From Shigella phage Sfin-1, in sequence record NC_047998.1: a stretch of 50,403 nucleotides of DNA, one strand, 5' to 3'. Positions 31,097 to 40,349 of this stretch are shown here, piece after piece. A program made the translations under genes and the position numbers. The notes under the pieces were generated by a model that worked only from the letters and a program-made list of their open reading frames with translations, searched no databases and was not told where the DNA came from. How positions within the stretch are numbered: the first letter of the stretch is position 1; every line of letters starts with the position of its first letter.

Positions 31097-32881
31097 ATGG
31101 CTTTATACAGACGCGGTACTGCATCAATGGATGCAGACGGAACGGTTCACGGAACCGATACAAAATGGAAAGATCAGCTTGCTCTTATTCGCGTAGGTGC
31201 AACTATCGTGTTCCTTGAGCAACCAATTAAGCTGGCTGTGATTAGCGATATCGTTAGTGATACAGAATTAAAGGCTATCTCTACTGATGGTCAGACTGCC
31301 GATGACGGTAAGTATGTGATCCTACTTAATGACTCTCTAACCGTTAACGGATTAGCTCAAAACGTCGCCGAGACTCTGCGATACTATCAAAGCAAAGAGA
31401 CTGAGATTGCGGAAGCTATAGACCTGATAAATCAGCTTGATATGAATAAACTTGAGCAAATAGTTGCTGATGTGAATCAGGCGAAATCTGATTCTCAAGC
31501 TGCGCAAAATCAGGCTGAATTAGCGCGTGACGCAGCCAACGCTGCACGCGATGAAACTAACTCAATCAAGAATCAGACGCAACAGATTGTTGACGGTGCT
31601 GTCGGTAGCATCAATGCGGCTAAGGATCAGGCTATAACCGATGTGCAGCAAAAAGAAAATTCATCCATCACTCACATTGACTCAGAAGAAGCGGCGGCGA
31701 TTCAGGCAATTAATGACGCGAAAGGCGATCTGTCAGGTTACGTTAATGACGCTCAAACGGCAGCACAAACGGCTACCTCTGCAAAAAACGACGCTCAGGC
31801 AGCACGTGACGAAGCGGTAAGCTCAAAAGATGCTGCTGCGGTAAGTGCTCAAGAAGCAAAAGACGCAGCTAACAGCATCAATGCTGAAAATCTTTTAACT
31901 AAGGATGGCAATCTAGCTGGTCTTGATGATAAAAAAGAGTCAAGAAAAAATATTGGGTTAGGTGAAAATGATGCTGTTAACTTTCTTACTATTAACACCA
32001 CGGGAGCTATAGGGGCAGGAAGGAACTCATGGAACGGTTCTAATTGGGGTAGTCAGTCCATATTGTCATCATTGATGATTATGTCACCTGATGGAATATC
32101 CACACCAGGGATTTACGTCAGAAAAGAACATAGCGATAATGGTTATGCTGGGGCTTTATTATTTTATGAAGGGGCAAACTACTTCGAGACTAACAATAGA
32201 TTTAGAGCTAATCAGTTTTTATGCCAGAAAACATCTATGGGTTACAACCAGATGTGGTCTGCTTCATGCTTCCAGGGTAATGCTTACACTGCCGATAGTG
32301 GCGCTGAAAACTATCAATCACTTATTGCTGGATCGTGTGGTACAAGGGGTCAAGGGTATGTTGGCGGCGTAGCTTTTGGCATGATGACTACGGGCAATCC
32401 TGAATGGCCCAGGGCGCAAATATCAGTAGGCGCTCAAGATAGGGATGGGGCAGGCAATATTGGTTTGCAAATGCATTTCAGGTTTATGGCTTCAGGGCAA
32501 ATATCTTACGCTGGACCGCAAGGGGCTGGAAGTTTCCAACAGATTCCGGCATCTGACAGAAATATAAAGCACAGCATAAAGGATGATGAATCAAGCATTG
32601 CATACAACAACATAAAATCAATGAGATTTAGGAACTTTATCTTTAACGATGATGAGCAAGAAAGGGTAAGGCGAGGTGTTATAGCTCAGGAGATAGAAGA
32701 GATCGACAATCTATATGTTAAGAGAAGGATGTATGAGAGCCACGAGCTAAACGGGCCAAAAGTTGAAAGGCTTGAGCTTGATACAACTCCTTTATTGCTT
32801 GACACTATGAGAGCTTTACAGGATACAATAAAGAAAGTTGAAGAGTTACAAGAAGAGATAAAAATGTTGAAGTCCAAATGA
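31097..32881 (+). CDS. Tail fiber protein with C-terminal intramolecular chaperone (peptidase S74-like) domain
   Basis: Long Ala/Gln/Asp-rich coiled-coil region; C-terminal segment ...DRNIKHSIKDDESSIAYNNIKSMRFRNFIF...GVIAQEIEEI... matches the self-cleaving chaperone domain as I recall it from T5 pb1 and endosialidases; AAGGAG RBS. Confidence 0.75.
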   Translation: MALYRRGTASMDADGTVHGTDTKWKDQLALIRVGATIVFLEQPIKLAVISDIVSDTELKAISTDGQTADDGKYVILLNDSLTVNGLAQNVAETLRYYQSKETEIAEAIDLINQLDMNKLEQIVADVNQAKSDSQAAQNQAELARDAANAARDETNSIKNQTQQIVDGAVGSINAAKDQAITDVQQKENSSITHIDSEEAAAIQAINDAKGDLSGYVNDAQTAAQTATSAKNDAQAARDEAVSSKDAAAVSAQEAKDAANSINAENLLTKDGNLAGLDDKKESRKNIGLGENDAVNFLTINTTGAIGAGRNSWNGSNWGSQSILSSLMIMSPDGISTPGIYVRKEHSDNGYAGALLFYEGANYFETNNRFRANQFLCQKTSMGYNQMWSASCFQGNAYTADSGAENYQSLIAGSCGTRGQGYVGGVAFGMMTTGNPEWPRAQISVGAQDRDGAGNIGLQMHFRFMASGQISYAGPQGAGSFQQIPASDRNIKHSIKDDESSIAYNNIKSMRFRNFIFNDDEQERVRRGVIAQEIEEIDNLYVKRRMYESHELNGPKVERLELDTTPLLLDTMRALQDTIKKVEELQEEIKMLKSK

Positions 32882-35156: not shown

Positions 35157-35682
35157 TTCGTTTATCTCCCTCGTTTACGATGAATCCATTATAGCCATTA
35201 ACAGCGTTTAGTCAATCGAATACATGTAATTGGTGTGTAATTGCGTGTCTATATCGCTCAAGTTACAACCAGCGCCAATGTAATCAATTACTTAATCCTG
35301 TTTTTATGTTGTGTATATTGCGTAATACTTGTAACCGCTTTTTCTTAGAAATACAAAGATATCCATGAATAGAATCAAGATTGATTATATTTTGAACAAA
35401 TATGATAGAAATTTGACGAATCAATCAAATCACCTGTTACACGATATACAACTGTTACACAACAATAATTATATATATAAAGCTAAAATTAAATATTATC
35501 TATCTATATATATTATATAGAGTTTTTATCATATCCCCCTGCTGTCGGATGGGGTTGATTTTGTAACACCCGTTCCGGTTACAAAAATAGACACCTGTTA
35601 CACGAAAAAATTGTAATCGCGCTATTGCAATAAAAGTAAATGCGACATACAATGAAATCACACTAACGACGAGGACATACAA
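35157..35682. promoter_or_regulatory. Divergent control region B: TA-rich tract, repeated CTGTTACAC / GTTACA half-sites, TTGCAA-17-TACAAT promoter
   Basis: Strand-switch region; CTGTTACAC at 35433, 35451, 35595; GTTACA/TGTAAC core at least 7 times; shares a 16-bp TA-rich element (CTATATATATTATATA) with region A. Confidence 0.55.
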
Positions 35683-35913
35683 ATGAAAAAGTTAATCACC
35701 ATTATCGCTGCGGCATTCATCCTGACTGGTTGTGCTCAGAATCTTAAAAATGGCGACTGCGTTACTTACGCATACGGTTCTTGCATGATGCGATTCGTTG
35801 ATGGTCAAAAGGTTCCTGCTGGCGAAATTGATATGCGATTCAAAGGTCTGTCATCCGACGACGATCAGGGCAACTTTAGCGGCAAGGTGTCAATCAAAAC
35901 TAAAGAGTGGTAA
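35683..35913 (+). CDS. Small lipoprotein, candidate superinfection-exclusion protein (Llp/Cor-like)
   Basis: Signal peptide with lipobox LTGC; 76 aa; adjacent to the tail-tip and receptor-binding region. Confidence 0.5.
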   Translation: MKKLITIIAAAFILTGCAQNLKNGDCVTYAYGSCMMRFVDGQKVPAGEIDMRFKGLSSDDDQGNFSGKVSIKTKEW

Positions 35914-35915
35914 TT

Positions 35916-36872
35916 ATGGGACAAGGAATATATATAAACCTAAACGACGGTCGCCCGGCAATGGAGATAACTTCAGGGCTTCGCGCCCCGTCATGGTGTG
36001 GACCTATACAGGCTGACGGAGTTGATTCATCTGGATCGGTTTTTGATTTTGGTCTGCAAATGAGTCCAGGATCTACCGCTTTTTGCCTTCCATCTCAGGC
36101 TATCTACATAGACGATATGGATTACATCCCGGAGGTGTATTATTTGACTAGTTTTCAGAAGGTCAATGATTCAACCGGACGAATAACGGTAGGTAATTTT
36201 AACGGGCACGGTGGAAGGAGGATGAGATTTTATGGAAACTGCTACGAAATCCTCCCCGCTCAGGCTGGAAATCAGGGGATACTTGTTAACGATTCAACGA
36301 ACTTCGCAGCTATACCGAATAACGCCAGATTGATGAGCGCTGCATTTGTTGGGGGGATTCAGGTTAACGGTCAGGCTCAGTTGCCAGTACAGGGCGTTCC
36401 TTTCGGTATGTGGGATAATCCAAACGTAACACTTGAATCTGACGGCAATACAATATGGTGCAGGGATGCAAACTATAACGGGATTGATGACGTTGGCGCT
36501 AGCGTATACGTGCAACTCGTAATATTTAATAACACTCCACCACCCCCAGGGCCAGGAATAACCATGAGTAATCCTGCTGGTCAGATCGTCTTCTCAAGCG
36601 TTAGACGCCCATTCGTTCTCGGCGGGACTATGGCGATAAATGACGGGTGGCAGTGGTGTGGTGGATTTTTCCCAATACTAAGAACAGGTACGATATGCAG
36701 AGTTACAGGTGGATATAATAACATTCGATACAAGGGCGTGTGTATGAGCGGCGGTAACGTGAGAAGCGCCCCAGGAACAAGAGTAGGTAATTATTCCACC
36801 CAAAGCGGAGCGCAATTCCCCTTCAATATAAACATTTCAATGCCAATTCCTTTCACTCCGAACATGTATTAA
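35916..36872 (+). CDS. Hypothetical protein, candidate receptor-binding / tail-associated protein
   Basis: About 318 aa, Gly/Asn-rich beta-like sequence with a PPPPGPG linker; location beside the J-like gene and lipoprotein; no motif-level support. Confidence 0.35.
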   Translation: MGQGIYINLNDGRPAMEITSGLRAPSWCGPIQADGVDSSGSVFDFGLQMSPGSTAFCLPSQAIYIDDMDYIPEVYYLTSFQKVNDSTGRITVGNFNGHGGRRMRFYGNCYEILPAQAGNQGILVNDSTNFAAIPNNARLMSAAFVGGIQVNGQAQLPVQGVPFGMWDNPNVTLESDGNTIWCRDANYNGIDDVGASVYVQLVIFNNTPPPPGPGITMSNPAGQIVFSSVRRPFVLGGTMAINDGWQWCGGFFPILRTGTICRVTGGYNNIRYKGVCMSGGNVRSAPGTRVGNYSTQSGAQFPFNINISMPIPFTPNMY

Positions 36873-36898
36873 AAAAAGGGGCCAATCGGCCCCTTTCT
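36871..36898. terminator. Bidirectional intrinsic terminator between the 35916 gene and the J-like gene
   Basis: GGGGCC-AATC-GGCCCC hairpin with A7 upstream and a T-rich tract downstream. Confidence 0.7.
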
Positions 36899-36899
36899 G

Positions 36900-39800
36900 T
36901 TACCAGACACCAACAACCACTCGACCCCCGTTAGGTAAGTTGACCGTGATACCGTTATTGTTTATCTGAACCGTGTTATTTGTTCCGTTAAATGCAAACT
37001 CTCCGTTATTTGCGTAAATTCTACCCCTCACGGTTGCATTCATGAATGAAGCGTCGCCATTCTTGTTTATGGCCCACCCATTACTCCCATCCCAATTGTT
37101 AGATTGAATCCAGTTTCCAATCATGGCATTAGTAATAAAGCCATCCTTGATGATCGCACTACTTAGAATAACCTGGCCATTCTCAACAACGAATGGGTAC
37201 TGAGTCTGACCATTCATCCCTGTCATGATTGCAAATCGTGATGCCTCAAACAAAATCTGCGCCTTAACCGCAGCTCCGGAACCAATCAGAGACATAGCCA
37301 TGCCTGCACTGTATTCTTGTCCGTTATACTTCAGACCGAGCTTGACGCCGTACATTGCACCAGTCGAATCCGCATTGCTCCACGAATCAAGTTTTTGAGA
37401 AAGCGCTGCCTCATTATTCCCAAGCCTCGCGCTTAACGACAAGTCAGCTTGCGTTCTCGCCTCAGTCTCGTTTGCTATAGCCTCTCTGATATCAGTCAAA
37501 CTTGCCTGGATATCATCACCAATCTCTGCCTTGAGTTGGTCAATTTCACGCGATAGCGCTCCAGTCTCAGTTGCGATAACTTCACGCAATTCGCTGTTGC
37601 TAGCGCTAATCTGATCGCCAAAACTTGCTTTCAATTGCTCGATCGCCGTCACTCGTGCCTGCGTCTCATCAGCAATAAGTTTCAGTGATTTCGTGTACTC
37701 AGCTTTTCGTTTTCCGTTCTCCTTCTTCATGTAGATCGCGTCTTTGTCATTGGCGAGCGCGTTTTCTATTGCTGCCTCTGCGTTAGCTGCGTTCTGCGCC
37801 GCGTTGTCGGTTGCGTTATCAACAAGCCACTCGTAACCAGGCGAGTTTTCGATATCGACAGAAATCTCCCCAATGATATCGTCAACGTTTGTTGATGCCA
37901 TACCTCTGACAAAATCAGTCCACTGAGACACGTTACCGATCCTATCAACCGTCCTTACCCGATACCACACAATATTCCCGCCCGGCATCGGTGAATGATA
38001 ATACTCATGCTGCGGATACGGGATCAGAGAGAGTAAACTCGCATTGTCAACCGTTCCATCCGGTGACTGTTGCAACTCTGTATAGGCCGTATCTCCAGAA
38101 CCATCAGAGAACCCCCATTTTGTACGGATACCAAAAACAACATCATCCGTAGCTGTAAGGTTAATCGGTCGACCCGGCTCACCTTGTTTGCCCGTCAGCG
38201 TCGCAGCTACGATATTTGACCATCCTGAAGTCGTACCGGAACCAGCTACGGAGCGAACGCGAACCTGATAGTTGCCAGCGTAAATACCTTCAACGTATAC
38301 CTCTTTGTTTGCTGTCTGTGGTACATTTTGCCAGTTGCCATTATCCTTTCTCCACTGAACATCATAGAAAACTGCGTACGGCACTTTATCCCAGCTTACA
38401 ATCATCGTCTCTACGCTCATCCCCTGGACGATTCGTGACTCAGATGACACTTGCACGTTTTCCGGTCTAGGGATCTGGTCTGGTTCAACGATACTCGTCG
38501 GTCTGTCGTCTATGTTCACACCGTAATCAATCTCATCGTACTTGTTAGGATCGTACTCCACCGCAGTAATCTTGTAGGTAAATTCCTCATCGTCATCACC
38601 CTTATCGATTTTTGTCACGACGTACTGCTGTAACGCAATGTCTGTGCGGTCGATAGCGAATACCGTGTTAGGCTTCACAGGAAAGCCAAAGCCAATGTTA
38701 ACCTCTATAGTCTTACCATCCGCACTAACACTTGAGATTGTGCGCTTCACGGGCTTGCCATCTGGCTTATTTACGATAATAAAGTCACCCGCGCGTGCAT
38801 CCACCCGGAACGGCAAGAAAATCTGACTTCCAGACACTTCGAGCAAGCGCCCTGATAGGTTCATCGTCAAGTTACTTGACCAGAAGTTATCAGCTATTGC
38901 CACAACATCTCCGATTGTCGGGATCATACCCTCAAGACCGGTAGCGAAGTTTACCGTAGTGCTGCGGAGGTTGGTTTTCAGAATCCATCTCCCGCGTCGG
39001 TTGGCCTCGCTTCGACGTGTGCAACCGATCGCTGTAATGCTGGTTACGTTATTACCGAACCGCAGAGTCGCCTCACGATCGAATACTGGCTCAACGTCCT
39101 GTTGATACATGTTTTGCTCGTCGTCAAACATCACGTTACACGTCGTGTACATACTCTTTTCGCTTGCGAACGTATAGGAGAAGTCACCATTAACAACGTT
39201 GTCGTTAGTGAAGATGTAAGCAGGCTCACGCGGTCTGTCGATGATTACCGAGATGCTTTCGCCATTCCAGAAGCTCATACCACGGAAGATTGAGCAAATA
39301 TCTCGAATCACCTTATACGCATCAGTCTGTGACTGAATTATCACGTCGCAAAGGTAGCGAGGCTCCGTACCGCCTTTCCCGTCAGGAACCATCTGGTCGC
39401 AATATTGCGCCGCCTCATATAGCGCCCATTTATCGACAGATATTCCAAGCTCTTTCTGATCCAGCCCGTAACGCTGATTAATCATCAAGTCATAAAGAAC
39501 CCAAGCCGGATTATTAGTCCACGCCTTCTTAAAAGTGCCATCCCAATTTCCGTTATAAGTTCGTGATTCCGGATCGTAGTTTGACGGAACGTTTACAATT
39601 TTCCAGCGCTTACGAATTGAGATCGTAGGTAACTGGTTTGGGAACATCTTCGAGTCGAACTCTACGAAAAGAAGACCTGTCAGAGGGTAACGGAATTTGG
39701 CATCAATCACCTCGGCATAGCTCTTTACCTGAATCGCATCAACAACGTTTGAATTATCAGAATCTGGAGTCTTTCGAACAATCCTGAATATAACCTGGTT

Positions 39801-40349
39801 ATTGAAGTTTGGCAGGTTTACACGACGGCTTCGATCGTAACCTGACATTGTTTTGCCTTCGATTACGTCAGTAAGAATAGTCTCAAACGAACCACTATCA
39901 ACCGCTTGCTGCACTTCGTACTCAACGCGAACGCCGTTTTTATCGCCGTTGCTTTCAATGCGTACGCCGCGAGGCATGAACATTTTAATACGGATTGCCG
40001 ACAGCGTCTTGTTGGTTACTGAGATCGTGTATGGATTATCGGTAGTAATCTCACGGTTTACAGTTACCTCGCTGGAGCTATCCTCCATGCCCTTAATGTA
40101 TTCCTGAGTCTGCGTACCCGGCCTGAACTCTGCTGTTACGCCCTCAAAGTTAAAAGAGCCATCCTCGTTTTGCACCGGGACTGAGTTAAACATCAGTTGC
40201 TTAAGGTTGAATGTTTCGTCAACCTCGCCATCAGATACTGCCAGAAGAATTTTGATTTTGTTGATTGAGATTAGATTATCTTCCATCTCAACTGGCTTAT
40301 GCGGCTTTTGTGATCCACCTTTAGATCCACTTATCACTTTTTGAATCAT
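36900..40349 (-). CDS. Tail tip / host-specificity protein (lambda J-like)
   Basis: 1149 aa; last gene of the tail module after the I/K/L/M homologs. Confidence 0.85.
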   Translation of the reverse strand: MIQKVISGSKGGSQKPHKPVEMEDNLISINKIKILLAVSDGEVDETFNLKQLMFNSVPVQNEDGSFNFEGVTAEFRPGTQTQEYIKGMEDSSSEVTVNREITTDNPYTISVTNKTLSAIRIKMFMPRGVRIESNGDKNGVRVEYEVQQAVDSGSFETILTDVIEGKTMSGYDRSRRVNLPNFNNQVIFRIVRKTPDSDNSNVVDAIQVKSYAEVIDAKFRYPLTGLLFVEFDSKMFPNQLPTISIRKRWKIVNVPSNYDPESRTYNGNWDGTFKKAWTNNPAWVLYDLMINQRYGLDQKELGISVDKWALYEAAQYCDQMVPDGKGGTEPRYLCDVIIQSQTDAYKVIRDICSIFRGMSFWNGESISVIIDRPREPAYIFTNDNVVNGDFSYTFASEKSMYTTCNVMFDDEQNMYQQDVEPVFDREATLRFGNNVTSITAIGCTRRSEANRRGRWILKTNLRSTTVNFATGLEGMIPTIGDVVAIADNFWSSNLTMNLSGRLLEVSGSQIFLPFRVDARAGDFIIVNKPDGKPVKRTISSVSADGKTIEVNIGFGFPVKPNTVFAIDRTDIALQQYVVTKIDKGDDDEEFTYKITAVEYDPNKYDEIDYGVNIDDRPTSIVEPDQIPRPENVQVSSESRIVQGMSVETMIVSWDKVPYAVFYDVQWRKDNGNWQNVPQTANKEVYVEGIYAGNYQVRVRSVAGSGTTSGWSNIVAATLTGKQGEPGRPINLTATDDVVFGIRTKWGFSDGSGDTAYTELQQSPDGTVDNASLLSLIPYPQHEYYHSPMPGGNIVWYRVRTVDRIGNVSQWTDFVRGMASTNVDDIIGEISVDIENSPGYEWLVDNATDNAAQNAANAEAAIENALANDKDAIYMKKENGKRKAEYTKSLKLIADETQARVTAIEQLKASFGDQISASNSELREVIATETGALSREIDQLKAEIGDDIQASLTDIREAIANETEARTQADLSLSARLGNNEAALSQKLDSWSNADSTGAMYGVKLGLKYNGQEYSAGMAMSLIGSGAAVKAQILFEASRFAIMTGMNGQTQYPFVVENGQVILSSAIIKDGFITNAMIGNWIQSNNWDGSNGWAINKNGDASFMNATVRGRIYANNGEFAFNGTNNTVQINNNGITVNLPNGGRVVVGVW

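What the first reader, a model, noticed from the sequence alone, without database searches (positions are those of the whole stretch)
35683..36872. Lipoprotein gene fused head-to-tail with a candidate receptor-binding protein next to the tail-tip gene
A 76-aa lipoprotein (lipobox LTGC) is the first gene after control region B and is immediately followed by a 318-aa Gly/Asn-rich protein, both convergent on the J-like gene. In T5 the Llp lipoprotein is encoded beside the receptor-binding protein and blocks the outer-membrane receptor; Cor of phi80/N15 plays the same role. This pair is the best candidate for a receptor-blocking superinfection-exclusion lipoprotein and its cognate receptor-binding protein.
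Basis: partly seen in the sequence, partly recalled or inferred. Interest (0 to 1): 0.55.

Follow-up and report, generated by a model that had tools for sequence, protein, structure and literature searches.

The report
Known LptD receptor-binding and exclusion gene pair

Summary
The window is the published genome of Shigella phage Sfin-1. The finding's coordinates match its CDS65 and CDS66 exactly.

Both ORFs are real. They are separate genes (TAA, 2 nt, ATG), not fused, and they converge on the J-like tail-tip gene across a shared hairpin terminator.

**The 318-aa protein**
- It is a full-length DUF6453 protein (Pfam 1.2e-126).
- It matches the solved Oekolampad receptor-binding protein bound to LptDE (PDB 9RPT) by sequence (9.5e-67) and by predicted fold (TM 0.91).
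- It is 68% identical to the MSK/OzMSK protein; OzMSK is experimentally LptD-dependent.

**The lipoprotein**
- It belongs to PF24052 and matches Rtp45 (PDB 9RPS), the exclusion lipoprotein that binds the periplasmic side of LptD.
- The lipobox, the disulfide cysteines and the hairpin motif are conserved.

- The functional interpretation is supported.
- The receptor is predicted to be LptD, not FhuA.
- The proteins are analogues, not homologues, of T5 Llp/pb5 and T1 Cor.
- SH6, with 99% identical proteins, is already listed in the literature as a predicted LptD phage, so this is already known.

**Small additions from this work**
- Comparison with T1 places the swapped cassette at about 35734-37096.
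- The lipoprotein and the receptor-binding protein have incongruent ancestries.
- Kuravirus podophage SU10 carries the same three parts.

The parts
35625..35653 (+). Sigma-70-like promoter candidate (TTGCAA-17-TACAAT) about 30 nt upstream of the lipoprotein gene
   Evidence: Consensus scan. The number of such sites in the region is no more than shuffles give, so the scan alone is weak. The sequence is identical in the region upstream of T1 cor.
35671..35675 (+). Shine-Dalgarno GAGGA, 7 nt before the ATG of the lipoprotein gene
   Evidence: Read from the sequence. Identical in T1 upstream of cor.
35683..35913 (+). Superinfection-exclusion prolipoprotein, 76 aa. Signal peptide aa 1-16, lipobox LTGC with lipidated Cys17, mature 60 aa. 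Cys26 and Cys34, the VPAGEIDMRF motif and the C-terminal KEW are conserved.
   Evidence: PF24052 8.6e-25. phrog_4281 3e-37. PDB 9rps_D (Rtp45) 1.1e-9. Family alignment A2. Mature part 73% identical to the Oekolampad protein, 52% to mEp021 gp81 and 41% to Rtp45.
35916..36872 (+). Tail-tip receptor-binding protein, 318 aa, DUF6453, all-beta; predicted LptD binder
   Evidence: PF20051 1.2e-126. PDB 9rpt_C 9.5e-67 over the full length. AF2 model pLDDT 84.7, pTM 0.83. Foldseek gives 9rpt_C as the only significant hit: E 8.2e-21, TM 0.91, rmsd 2.2 A. 68% identical to the MSK RBP and 99% to SH6 gp49.
36873..36899 (.). Bidirectional intrinsic terminator hairpin between the RBP gene and the J gene (stem 36878-36883 / 36888-36893)
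   Evidence: RNA folds of -17.9 and -19.5 kcal/mol, z -4.5 and -3.9. On the minus strand a U7 run follows the stem. The consensus scanner did not flag it.
36900..37096 (-). Stop codon plus the last ~64 codons of J. This is the tip segment that travels with the RBP cassette and is the presumed RBP docking adaptor.
   Evidence: Identity of the last 75 aa of J is 41% to T1 but 76-80% to LptD-type phages (ECH1, Jk06, Rtp). The preceding 325 aa are 98% identical to T1. DNA breakpoint at about 37096.
36900..40349 (-). J-like central tail fibre / tail-tip protein, 1149 aa (context)
   Evidence: PF24801, PF13550, PF09327. phrog_31 central tail fiber J.
35734..37096 (.). Extent of the exchanged LptD specificity cassette relative to T1: mature lipoprotein, RBP, terminator and J tip
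   Evidence: blastn against T1 gives flanks of 91-92% identity ending at 35732 and resuming at 37096. Alignments show divergence starting right after the lipobox Cys codon and inside J.

Best explanation
This is the LptD-type host-recognition and exclusion module of small siphophages, carried here by the T1-like Shigella phage Sfin-1.

**Transcription.** Inferred: a promoter shared with T1 cor drives a bicistronic message, lipoprotein then RBP. It ends at a hairpin terminator shared with the convergent J gene.

**The RBP.** Shown by homology and fold: the 318-aa all-beta DUF6453 protein is the tail-tip receptor-binding protein. Inferred: it docks by its conserved N-terminal base on the last ~64 residues of J, which were co-transferred with it. 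It inserts its tip loops into the lumen of the LPS translocon LptDE (loops EL3-5 and EL11, open state). This gives irreversible adsorption after the lateral fibre (31097-32881) has bound O-antigen/LPS.

**The lipoprotein.** Shown by homology: the 76-aa product belongs to the Rtp45 family. Inferred:
- It is exported and lipidated at Cys17.
- It is sorted to the inner leaflet of the outer membrane (Ala at +2).
- It binds the periplasmic rim of LptD and pushes a hairpin up the lumen, displacing EL4.
- Further RBPs then cannot bind, which blocks superinfection and protects progeny from being lost on debris.
For: **Sequence and fold of the RBP**
- Pfam DUF6453 1.2e-126.
- 9rpt_C 9.5e-67 over the full length.
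- The AF2 model matches only 9rpt_C, TM 0.91.
- 68% identity to the MSK RBP. OzMSK, described as nearly identical to MSK, cannot infect two lptD mutants.

**The lipoprotein**
- PF24052 and 9rps_D 1.1e-9.
- The lipobox Cys, the disulfide Cys pair at the same spacing, VPAGE(I/V)D.R(F/Y) and KEW are all conserved.
- The relative mEp021 gp81 excludes its own phage.
- The Rtp45-LptDE structure and its mechanism are described.

**Architecture and context**
- The same lipoprotein-then-RBP arrangement, convergent on J, occurs in Oekolampad, ECH1, Rtp, CY1 and mEp021.
- Published work links this locus to receptor specificity.
- The T1 FhuA cassette (ST32, ST31, cor) occupies the same site in T1 and has no homologue in the window.
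- The J tip co-varies with the cassette.
- SH6 proteins are 99% identical, and SH6 is listed as a predicted LptD phage.
Against: - No experiment exists for Sfin-1 or any phage with this exact allele. The nearest validated RBP is 68% identical, and the solved one is 43% identical.
- The Sfin-1 paper concluded that the receptor is LPS O-antigen: adsorption was periodate-sensitive and insensitive to proteinase K. This fits a lateral-fibre primary receptor and a protease-protected barrel, but it does not show LptD use.
- Virion LC-MS/MS of Sfin-1 and of SH6 did not list the 318-aa protein. Both lists also miss other minor tail proteins, so the absence is weak evidence.
- Contact residues on LptD-facing loops are the least conserved part of the family.
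- The promoter call is only a consensus match.
Confidence: 0.88

Rival explanations
1. It is a T1/phi80-type FhuA module: the lipoprotein is a Cor orthologue that blocks FhuA, and the neighbouring protein binds FhuA. This follows the analogy the reader used. The SH6 paper also read ORF50 as a cor homologue.
For: - The PHROG Cor family hits aa 1-33 at 5.5e-6.
- BLASTP to T1 Cor gives 45% identity over 53 aa.
- The gene occupies the same position and orientation as cor in T1.
- The SH6 paper reported 45% identity to cor.
Against: - The similarity is confined to the signal peptide, which is nucleotide-identical to T1 up to the lipobox Cys and diverges immediately after it.
- NCBIfam Cor scores 13.4 bits against a cut-off of 31, covering aa 1-28 only. 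T1 Cor scores 55.8 as a control.
- No homologue of T1 ST31 or ST32 exists in the window.
- The mature part matches Rtp45 and the Oekolampad exclusion protein instead.
Confidence: 0.02
2. The module has the LptD-type fold, but this diverged allele recognises something else: another outer-membrane protein, or LPS itself as it emerges from the translocon.
For: - Identity to the solved RBP is only 43%, and 41% to Rtp44.
- Predicted receptor-facing loops are the variable part, and three loop groupings were proposed.
- Periodate abolishes Sfin-1 adsorption while proteinase K does not.
- mEp021, which carries a DUF6453 protein, was assigned partial OmpA dependence.
Against: - In the BASEL and later screens, every DUF6453 allele tested tracked with LptD across more than 30% sequence divergence.
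- The closest validated relative (OzMSK group, 68% identical) is LptD-dependent.
- The paired lipoprotein is 73% identical to that of Oekolampad, a confirmed LptD phage.
- S. flexneri LptDE is the very complex used for the solved structures.
Confidence: 0.07
3. The 318-aa protein is not a virion protein. It would be a membrane-associated 'moron', as in the PHROG and RefSeq labels, and the lipoprotein would serve another envelope function such as lysis.
For: - phrog_1265 is labelled 'membrane protein, moron', and RefSeq calls SH6 gp49 a 'membrane protein'.
- The protein was not detected in two virion proteomes.
- The gene is transcribed opposite to the tail operon.
Against: - The Oekolampad homologue was purified as a soluble protein and binds the extracellular face of LptDE.
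- The protein has no predicted helices or hydrophobic segments and is all-beta.
- The allele tracks receptor specificity.
- J-tip co-variation points to physical attachment.
- In S135 and Klebsiella Webervirus the gene is co-directional, immediately after J.
- mEp021_80 is annotated as a virion structural protein.
Confidence: 0.03

Closest known systems
Shigella phage SH6 gp49/gp50 (also pSf-2, Shfl1, phi2457T, Sfin-2/4/5/6)
   Same: RBP identity is 314/318 and lipoprotein identity is 75/76, at the same locus in the same genus. SH6 is already listed as a predicted LptD-dependent phage with an AF2 model.
   Different: Essentially nothing. These are the same allele. None has been tested experimentally for LptD use.
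Oekolampad (Bas18) RBP and exclusion lipoprotein bas18_0026; PDB 9RPT
   Same: Same gene order and convergence on J. The RBP has the same fold (TM 0.91). The mature lipoprotein is 73% identical.
   Different: The RBP is only 43% identical. The phage is a Dhillonvirus, not a Tunavirus. The last 75 aa of J are 53% identical.
Rtp44 / Rtp45 of phage Rtp; PDB 9RPS (Rtp45 on LptDE)
   Same: Same architecture. Same Pfam families. The Cys30-Cys38 disulfide positions and the hairpin motif are conserved.
   Different: Both proteins are about 41% identical. In Rtp the two genes overlap by 1 nt, whereas here there is a 2-nt gap.
MSK / OzMSK, ECH1, Jk06 (Rogunavirinae and Braunvirinae) RBPs
   Same: These are the closest RBP lineage, at 67-68% identity over the full length. 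The J tip is 78-80% identical. OzMSK is experimentally LptD-dependent.
   Different: Their lipoproteins are of the Rtp45 type, only 37% identical to the one here.
T1 ST32/ST31 plus Cor (FhuA module)
   Same: Same site between J and recE. The promoter, RBS and signal peptide of the exclusion lipoprotein are identical. The functional logic is the same.
   Different: The RBP genes are unrelated and co-directional with J. The mature lipoprotein is unrelated. The receptor is FhuA. The Cor family test failed.
T5 pb5 (Oad) and Llp
   Same: The logic is the same: a separate RBP at the tip of a straight fibre, plus a small periplasm-facing lipoprotein that alters the receptor from below.
   Different: No sequence or fold similarity was found. 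Llp acts by allostery on a TonB-dependent transporter, whereas Rtp45 acts by steric displacement of EL4.

Membership tests
DUF6453 / LptD-binding RBP of small siphophages (Oekolampad RBP, Rtp44) | Full-length sequence membership in PF20051 | tested here: met
   422 bits against a cut-off of 25, aa 4-295 on profile positions 1-291. phmmer to 9rpt_C 9.5e-67, aa 1-318.
DUF6453 / LptD-binding RBP of small siphophages (Oekolampad RBP, Rtp44) | All-beta double-sandwich fold of the solved RBP | tested here: met
   AF2 model pLDDT 84.7 with 24 strands and no helix. Foldseek to 9rpt_C: E 8.2e-21, TM(target) 0.91, rmsd 2.2 A; the next hit has E 0.7.
DUF6453 / LptD-binding RBP of small siphophages (Oekolampad RBP, Rtp44) | Encoded directly next to the 3' end of the J-like gene, with a matching J C-terminal tip | tested here: met
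   There is a 27-nt gap to J. The last 75 aa of J are 76-80% identical to LptD-type phages and 41% to T1.
DUF6453 / LptD-binding RBP of small siphophages (Oekolampad RBP, Rtp44) | Binds LptDE; infection is lost on lptD loop mutants | not testable with these tools
   This is known only for relatives: Oekolampad, Bas01/02/20 and OzMSK.
DUF6453 / LptD-binding RBP of small siphophages (Oekolampad RBP, Rtp44) | Present in the virion | tested here: inconclusive
   The protein is not listed in the Sfin-1 or SH6 virion LC-MS/MS tables. The mEp021 homologue is annotated as a virion structural protein, but I could not confirm this from the paper's text.
PF24052 phage lipoprotein / Rtp45-type exclusion protein | Pfam membership and small size (60-75 aa mature) | tested here: met
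   87 bits against a cut-off of 27. The mature protein is 60 aa.
PF24052 phage lipoprotein / Rtp45-type exclusion protein | Lipobox with lipidated Cys and an outer-membrane sorting residue | tested here: met
   LTGC with Cys17 and Ala at +2. The outer-membrane sorting inference rests on the established Lol +2 rule.
PF24052 phage lipoprotein / Rtp45-type exclusion protein | Disulfide Cys pair (Rtp45 Cys30-Cys38) and hairpin motif | tested here: met
   Cys26 and Cys34 have the same 7-residue spacing. G41, P45, G47, E75 and W76 are invariant in alignment A2.
PF24052 phage lipoprotein / Rtp45-type exclusion protein | Expression confers exclusion of the cognate phage | not testable with these tools
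   mEp021 gp81 excludes mEp021 and mEp515 in plasmid expression assays. For Rtp45 the evidence read here is its structure on LptDE and the steric exclusion mechanism proposed from it.
Cor (NF047972, phrog_1119) | Whole-protein match to the Cor model | tested here: not met
   13.4 bits against a cut-off of 31, aa 1-28 only. T1 Cor as control scores 55.8 bits over aa 1-73. The PHROG hit is limited to aa 1-33.
T5 Llp / pb5 | Sequence or fold similarity | tested here: not met
   There is no Pfam hit other than PF24052 and PF20051 at E<=0.1. No T5 RBP appears among the fold hits; the T5 tail-tip chain 7qg9_V has E 1.9.

The most novel reading that the evidence does not exclude
The triad of J-tip domain, DUF6453 RBP and PF24052 lipoprotein may be a portable LptD-docking kit that crosses phage morphotypes.

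**Within siphophages.** It moves as a 1.36-kb cassette. Its junctions sit at the lipobox Cys codon and about 64 codons before the end of J. The RBP and the lipoprotein reassort independently.

**In a podophage.** The same three parts occur in Kuravirus SU10:
- the gp18 tail needle has a J-tip domain at its C-terminus;
- the unassigned gp19 is a DUF6453 protein;
- SU10_0104 is a PF24052 lipoprotein.

This would predict LptD as the unrecognised terminal receptor of Kuraviruses.
Probability: 0.45. Interest if true: 0.55.

Novelty: already known. Interest (0 to 1): 0.18.

Why it matters
**For Sfin-1.** This gives a re-annotation. Two genes deposited as 'hypothetical' become the receptor-binding protein and the exclusion lipoprotein. 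The terminal receptor of this candidate therapeutic Shigella phage is predicted to be the essential LptDE translocon, not LPS alone as published.

That matters practically:
- Resistance should arise by lptD loop mutations.
- Cocktails should not combine Sfin-1 with other LptD phages if cross-resistance and cross-exclusion are to be avoided.

**For the field.** It adds nothing conceptually new, because the locus type, the receptor and both mechanisms are published.

**By-products with modest value**
- The nucleotide-level cassette boundaries against T1 are a natural blueprint for receptor swapping.
- The Kuravirus observation is a testable lead.

Tried and rejected
- **Cor membership.** The PHROG hit and the 45% BLASTP identity turned out to be the shared signal peptide only.
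- **T5 Llp/pb5 homology.** No sequence or fold signal was found.
- **A second, T1-type FhuA RBP or cor elsewhere in the window.** tblastn found none.
- **Terminator and promoter scanner.** It did not flag the J/RBP hairpin, and its promoter count equals chance. I folded the hairpin directly instead and treat the promoter as supported only by its identity with T1.
- **NCBIfam.** It has no model for the 318-aa protein.
- **Virion evidence.** Two published proteomes do not list the protein. The text of the mEp021 paper did not let me confirm that gp80 was among its 16 MS-identified proteins.
- **Lipoprotein structure.** I did not model it, because the authors of the Rtp45 structure report that predictions for this family are wrong.

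Full report
**Identity of the window.** A megablast of 35400-37000 finds 67 phage records, all T1-like Shigella or Escherichia phages. Identity is 99.4-100% to Sfin-6, Sfin-4, Sfin-5 and phi2457T. The gene table of the Sfin-1 paper lists CDS65 at 35683..35913, CDS66 at 35916..36872 and CDS67 at 40349..36900. These are exactly the window coordinates. The window is therefore the Sfin-1 genome, a Tunavirus of the Drexlerviridae.

**Observation.** Both ORFs exist as described.
- The 76-aa product starts MKKLITIIAAAFILTGC, with lipobox LTGC, Cys17 and Ala at +2.
- Its TAA is followed by two bases and then the ATG of a 318-aa ORF.
- The genes are therefore adjacent and probably translationally coupled, not fused.
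- The 318-aa protein is 13.2% Gly and 8.8% Asn.
- The J-like gene (1149 aa) is on the opposite strand and ends 27 nt away. The gap holds a GC-rich hairpin flanked by A and T runs, which folds well on both strands with z -4.5 and -3.9.
- A sigma-70-like site, TTGCAA-17-TACAAT, lies about 30 nt upstream of the lipoprotein gene. The scan found no more such sites than chance gives.

**What the proteins are: the 318-aa protein.**
- Pfam places it in DUF6453 (1.2e-126).
- Against PDB sequences it matches over its full length chain C of 9RPT/9RPW/9RQI, deposited as 'tail fiber protein' (9.5e-67).
- An AlphaFold2 model built on 51 homologues has pLDDT 84.7 and pTM 0.83, and is all-beta.
- That model has one significant match in the PDB, again 9rpt_C. 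This is the Oekolampad RBP bound to the open state of S. flexneri LptDE (E 8.2e-21, target-normalised TM 0.91, rmsd 2.2 A). The next hit has E 0.7.

**What the proteins are: the lipoprotein.**
- Pfam places it in PF24052, 'Phage lipoprotein family' (8.6e-25).
- It matches 9rps_D, Rtp45 (1.1e-9).
- A family alignment shows an invariant lipobox Cys and the two cysteines that form the Rtp45 Cys30-Cys38 disulfide, here Cys26 and Cys34 at the same spacing.
- It also shows the G..VP(A/S)GE(I/V)D.R(F/Y).G hairpin segment and the C-terminal KEW.

**Literature for this locus type.**
- Maffei et al. 2021 matched allelic variants of the locus downstream of gpJ to the terminal receptors of small siphophages and discovered LptD as one of them.
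- A 2026 preprint confirmed four unrelated RBP families at this locus, for FhuA, BtuB, LptD and YncD. It also noted that the J C-terminal tip tracks specificity.
- Dunbar et al. 2025 solved LptDE with the Oekolampad RBP and LptDE with Rtp45.
  - The RBP inserts into the lumen of an open LptD, contacting EL3-5 and EL11.
  - Rtp45 binds the periplasmic rim between LptE and LptM. It sends a hairpin up the lumen and displaces EL4 by up to 20 A, so the RBP cannot bind.
- Black et al. 2025 showed that OzMSK cannot infect two lptD mutants. They list SH6, a Tunavirus, among predicted LptD phages.
- Sfin-1's RBP is 68% identical over the full length to the RBP of MSK, a phage the OzMSK authors describe as nearly identical to their isolate. 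It is 99% identical to SH6 gp49, and its lipoprotein is 99% identical to SH6 gp50.
- mEp021 gp81 is 52% identical in the mature part. It excludes mEp021 and mEp515 when expressed from a plasmid.

**Comparison with T1.**
- In T1 the same site holds ST32 and ST31, co-directional with J, and cor, convergent on J. None of these has a homologue in the window apart from the cor signal peptide.
- blastn puts the edges of T1 similarity at window 35732 and 37096.
- On the left, the promoter-like site, the RBS and the first 17 codons are nucleotide-identical to T1 cor. Divergence starts at the codon after the lipobox Cys. This explains the PHROG Cor hit on aa 1-33 and the '45% identity to cor' reported for SH6.
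- The NCBIfam Cor model rejects the protein at 13.4 bits against a cut-off of 31, and accepts T1 Cor at 55.8.
- On the right, J is 98% identical to T1 J up to about 64 residues from its end. The last 75 residues are 41% identical to T1 but 76-80% identical to ECH1, Jk06 and Rtp.
- The exchanged unit is therefore about 35734-37096: mature lipoprotein, RBP, terminator and J tip. This fits the view that the J tip is the docking adaptor for the RBP.

**Mosaic ancestry within the module.**
- The mature lipoprotein is 73% identical to Oekolampad's but 37% identical to ECH1's.
- The RBP is 68% identical to ECH1's but 43% identical to Oekolampad's.
- ECH1's lipoprotein is 86% identical to Rtp45, while its RBP is 41% identical to Rtp44.
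- The two genes therefore reassort. That is expected if each binds LptD rather than the other.
- Some LptD-type phages lack the adjacent lipoprotein (FritzHoffmann). Others have the RBP co-directional after J (S135 and Klebsiella Webervirus).

**Mechanism, with status of each step.**
- Shown by homology and fold: family membership of both proteins, and the architecture.
- Inferred: co-transcription from the cor-type promoter.
- Inferred: Lol sorting of the lipoprotein to the outer membrane.
- Inferred: RBP attachment to the J tip through its conserved N-terminal base. M1, G4, D11, I18, G21 and R23 are invariant.
- Inferred: LptD binding by the RBP and EL4 displacement by the lipoprotein.
- The periodate sensitivity reported for Sfin-1 adsorption fits a primary O-antigen/LPS contact by the lateral fibre (31097-32881, Peptidase_S74 chaperone domain).

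**Evidence that cuts the other way.**
- There is no experiment on this allele.
- The 318-aa protein is absent from the Sfin-1 and SH6 virion proteome tables. Those tables also miss other minor tail proteins.

**Side observation.** tblastn of the lipoprotein also hit Gordonclarkvirinae podophages of about 70-78 kb. In SU10:
- SU10_0104 is a clear PF24052 member (2.6e-36).
- The tail-needle protein gp18 carries the J-tip domain PF09327 (3.7e-27). It aligns to the end of Sfin-1 J, finishing ...RIRIGSW against ...RVVVGVW.
- The next gene, gp19, is a DUF6453 protein (83.5 bits against a cut-off of 25; hhalign probability 97.8).
- The SU10 cryo-EM paper assigns gp18 as the needle, resolved to 15 A, and never mentions gp19.
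- I found no paper linking Kuraviruses to LptD.

**Verdict.** The receptor is corrected to LptD, and the homology claims to Cor and T5 are rejected. The feature is already known, including for the 99% identical SH6 proteins. Interest is low.

Noticed in passing
L014:19088-21089 and L011:2941-3222 (Escherichia phage SU10, KM044272: 19088..21089 and 66234..66515): Kuravirus podophage SU10 carries all three parts of the LptD module. The gp18 tail needle has a J-tip domain (PF09327). The adjacent, unassigned gp19 is a DUF6453 protein. SU10_0104 is a PF24052 lipoprotein with the lipobox, the Cys pair and the KEW end. Homologues of the lipoprotein also occur in Paul, Bas89, Bas90 and Bas93. No paper in the library links Kuraviruses to LptD. 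This suggests LptD as their terminal receptor, with gp19 at the needle tip.
   Followed up: partly
window 35683-35733 versus L012:14801-14851 (T1 cor): The exclusion lipoprotein is a chimera. Its promoter region, RBS and 17-codon signal peptide are nucleotide-identical to T1 cor, and the sequence diverges right after the lipobox Cys codon. The lipobox looks like a recombination joint for swapping the mature 'warhead'.
   Followed up: yes
window 35916-36872 and 35683-35913 compared with L001, L002, L004, L007, L010: The RBP and the lipoprotein have incongruent relationships. The lipoprotein is Oekolampad-like (73%) while the RBP is ECH1/MSK-like (68%). ECH1 pairs an Rtp45-like lipoprotein (86%) with an RBP only 41% identical to Rtp44. 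The two genes reassort independently within LptD modules.
   Followed up: yes
window 35434-35603: The motif CTGTTACAC occurs three times in the whole genome, all on the + strand within 170 bp upstream of the lipoprotein gene (0.31 expected). An inverted repeat, TTTGTAAC...GTTACAAA, lies at 35560-35585. The segment I aligned (35560-35800), which holds that inverted repeat and the third motif copy, is nearly identical in T1 upstream of cor; I did not compare the first two copies with T1. These may be a regulator binding site in the divergent recE/cor-type control region.
   Followed up: partly
window 35188-35215 (minus strand): A near-consensus sigma-70 promoter, TTGACT-16-TATAAT (11 of 12), points toward the recE/erf/ssb operon and is divergent from the lipoprotein gene.
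   Followed up: no
window 31097-32881: The lateral tail fibre (594 aa) has a C-terminal Peptidase_S74 intramolecular chaperone domain. It is the likely reader of O-antigen/LPS and explains the periodate-sensitive adsorption published for Sfin-1.
   Followed up: partly
L003:2385-2500; L008:2501-3460; L009:2501-3457: Not all DUF6453 loci carry the adjacent lipoprotein. FritzHoffmann (Bas20) has none. In Salmonella S135 and Klebsiella Webervirus the RBP gene is co-directional directly after J. In Klebsiella phage mtp2, another phage with hits to both proteins, the lipoprotein homologue lies about 10 kb from the RBP gene.
   Followed up: partly
L010:1762-2915 (mEp021 gp81/gp80): The temperate phage mEp021 carries the same lipoprotein-RBP pair. 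Its authors showed exclusion by gp81 but assigned OmpA as the (partial) receptor and did not consider LptD. The module predicts LptD as its terminal receptor.
   Followed up: no
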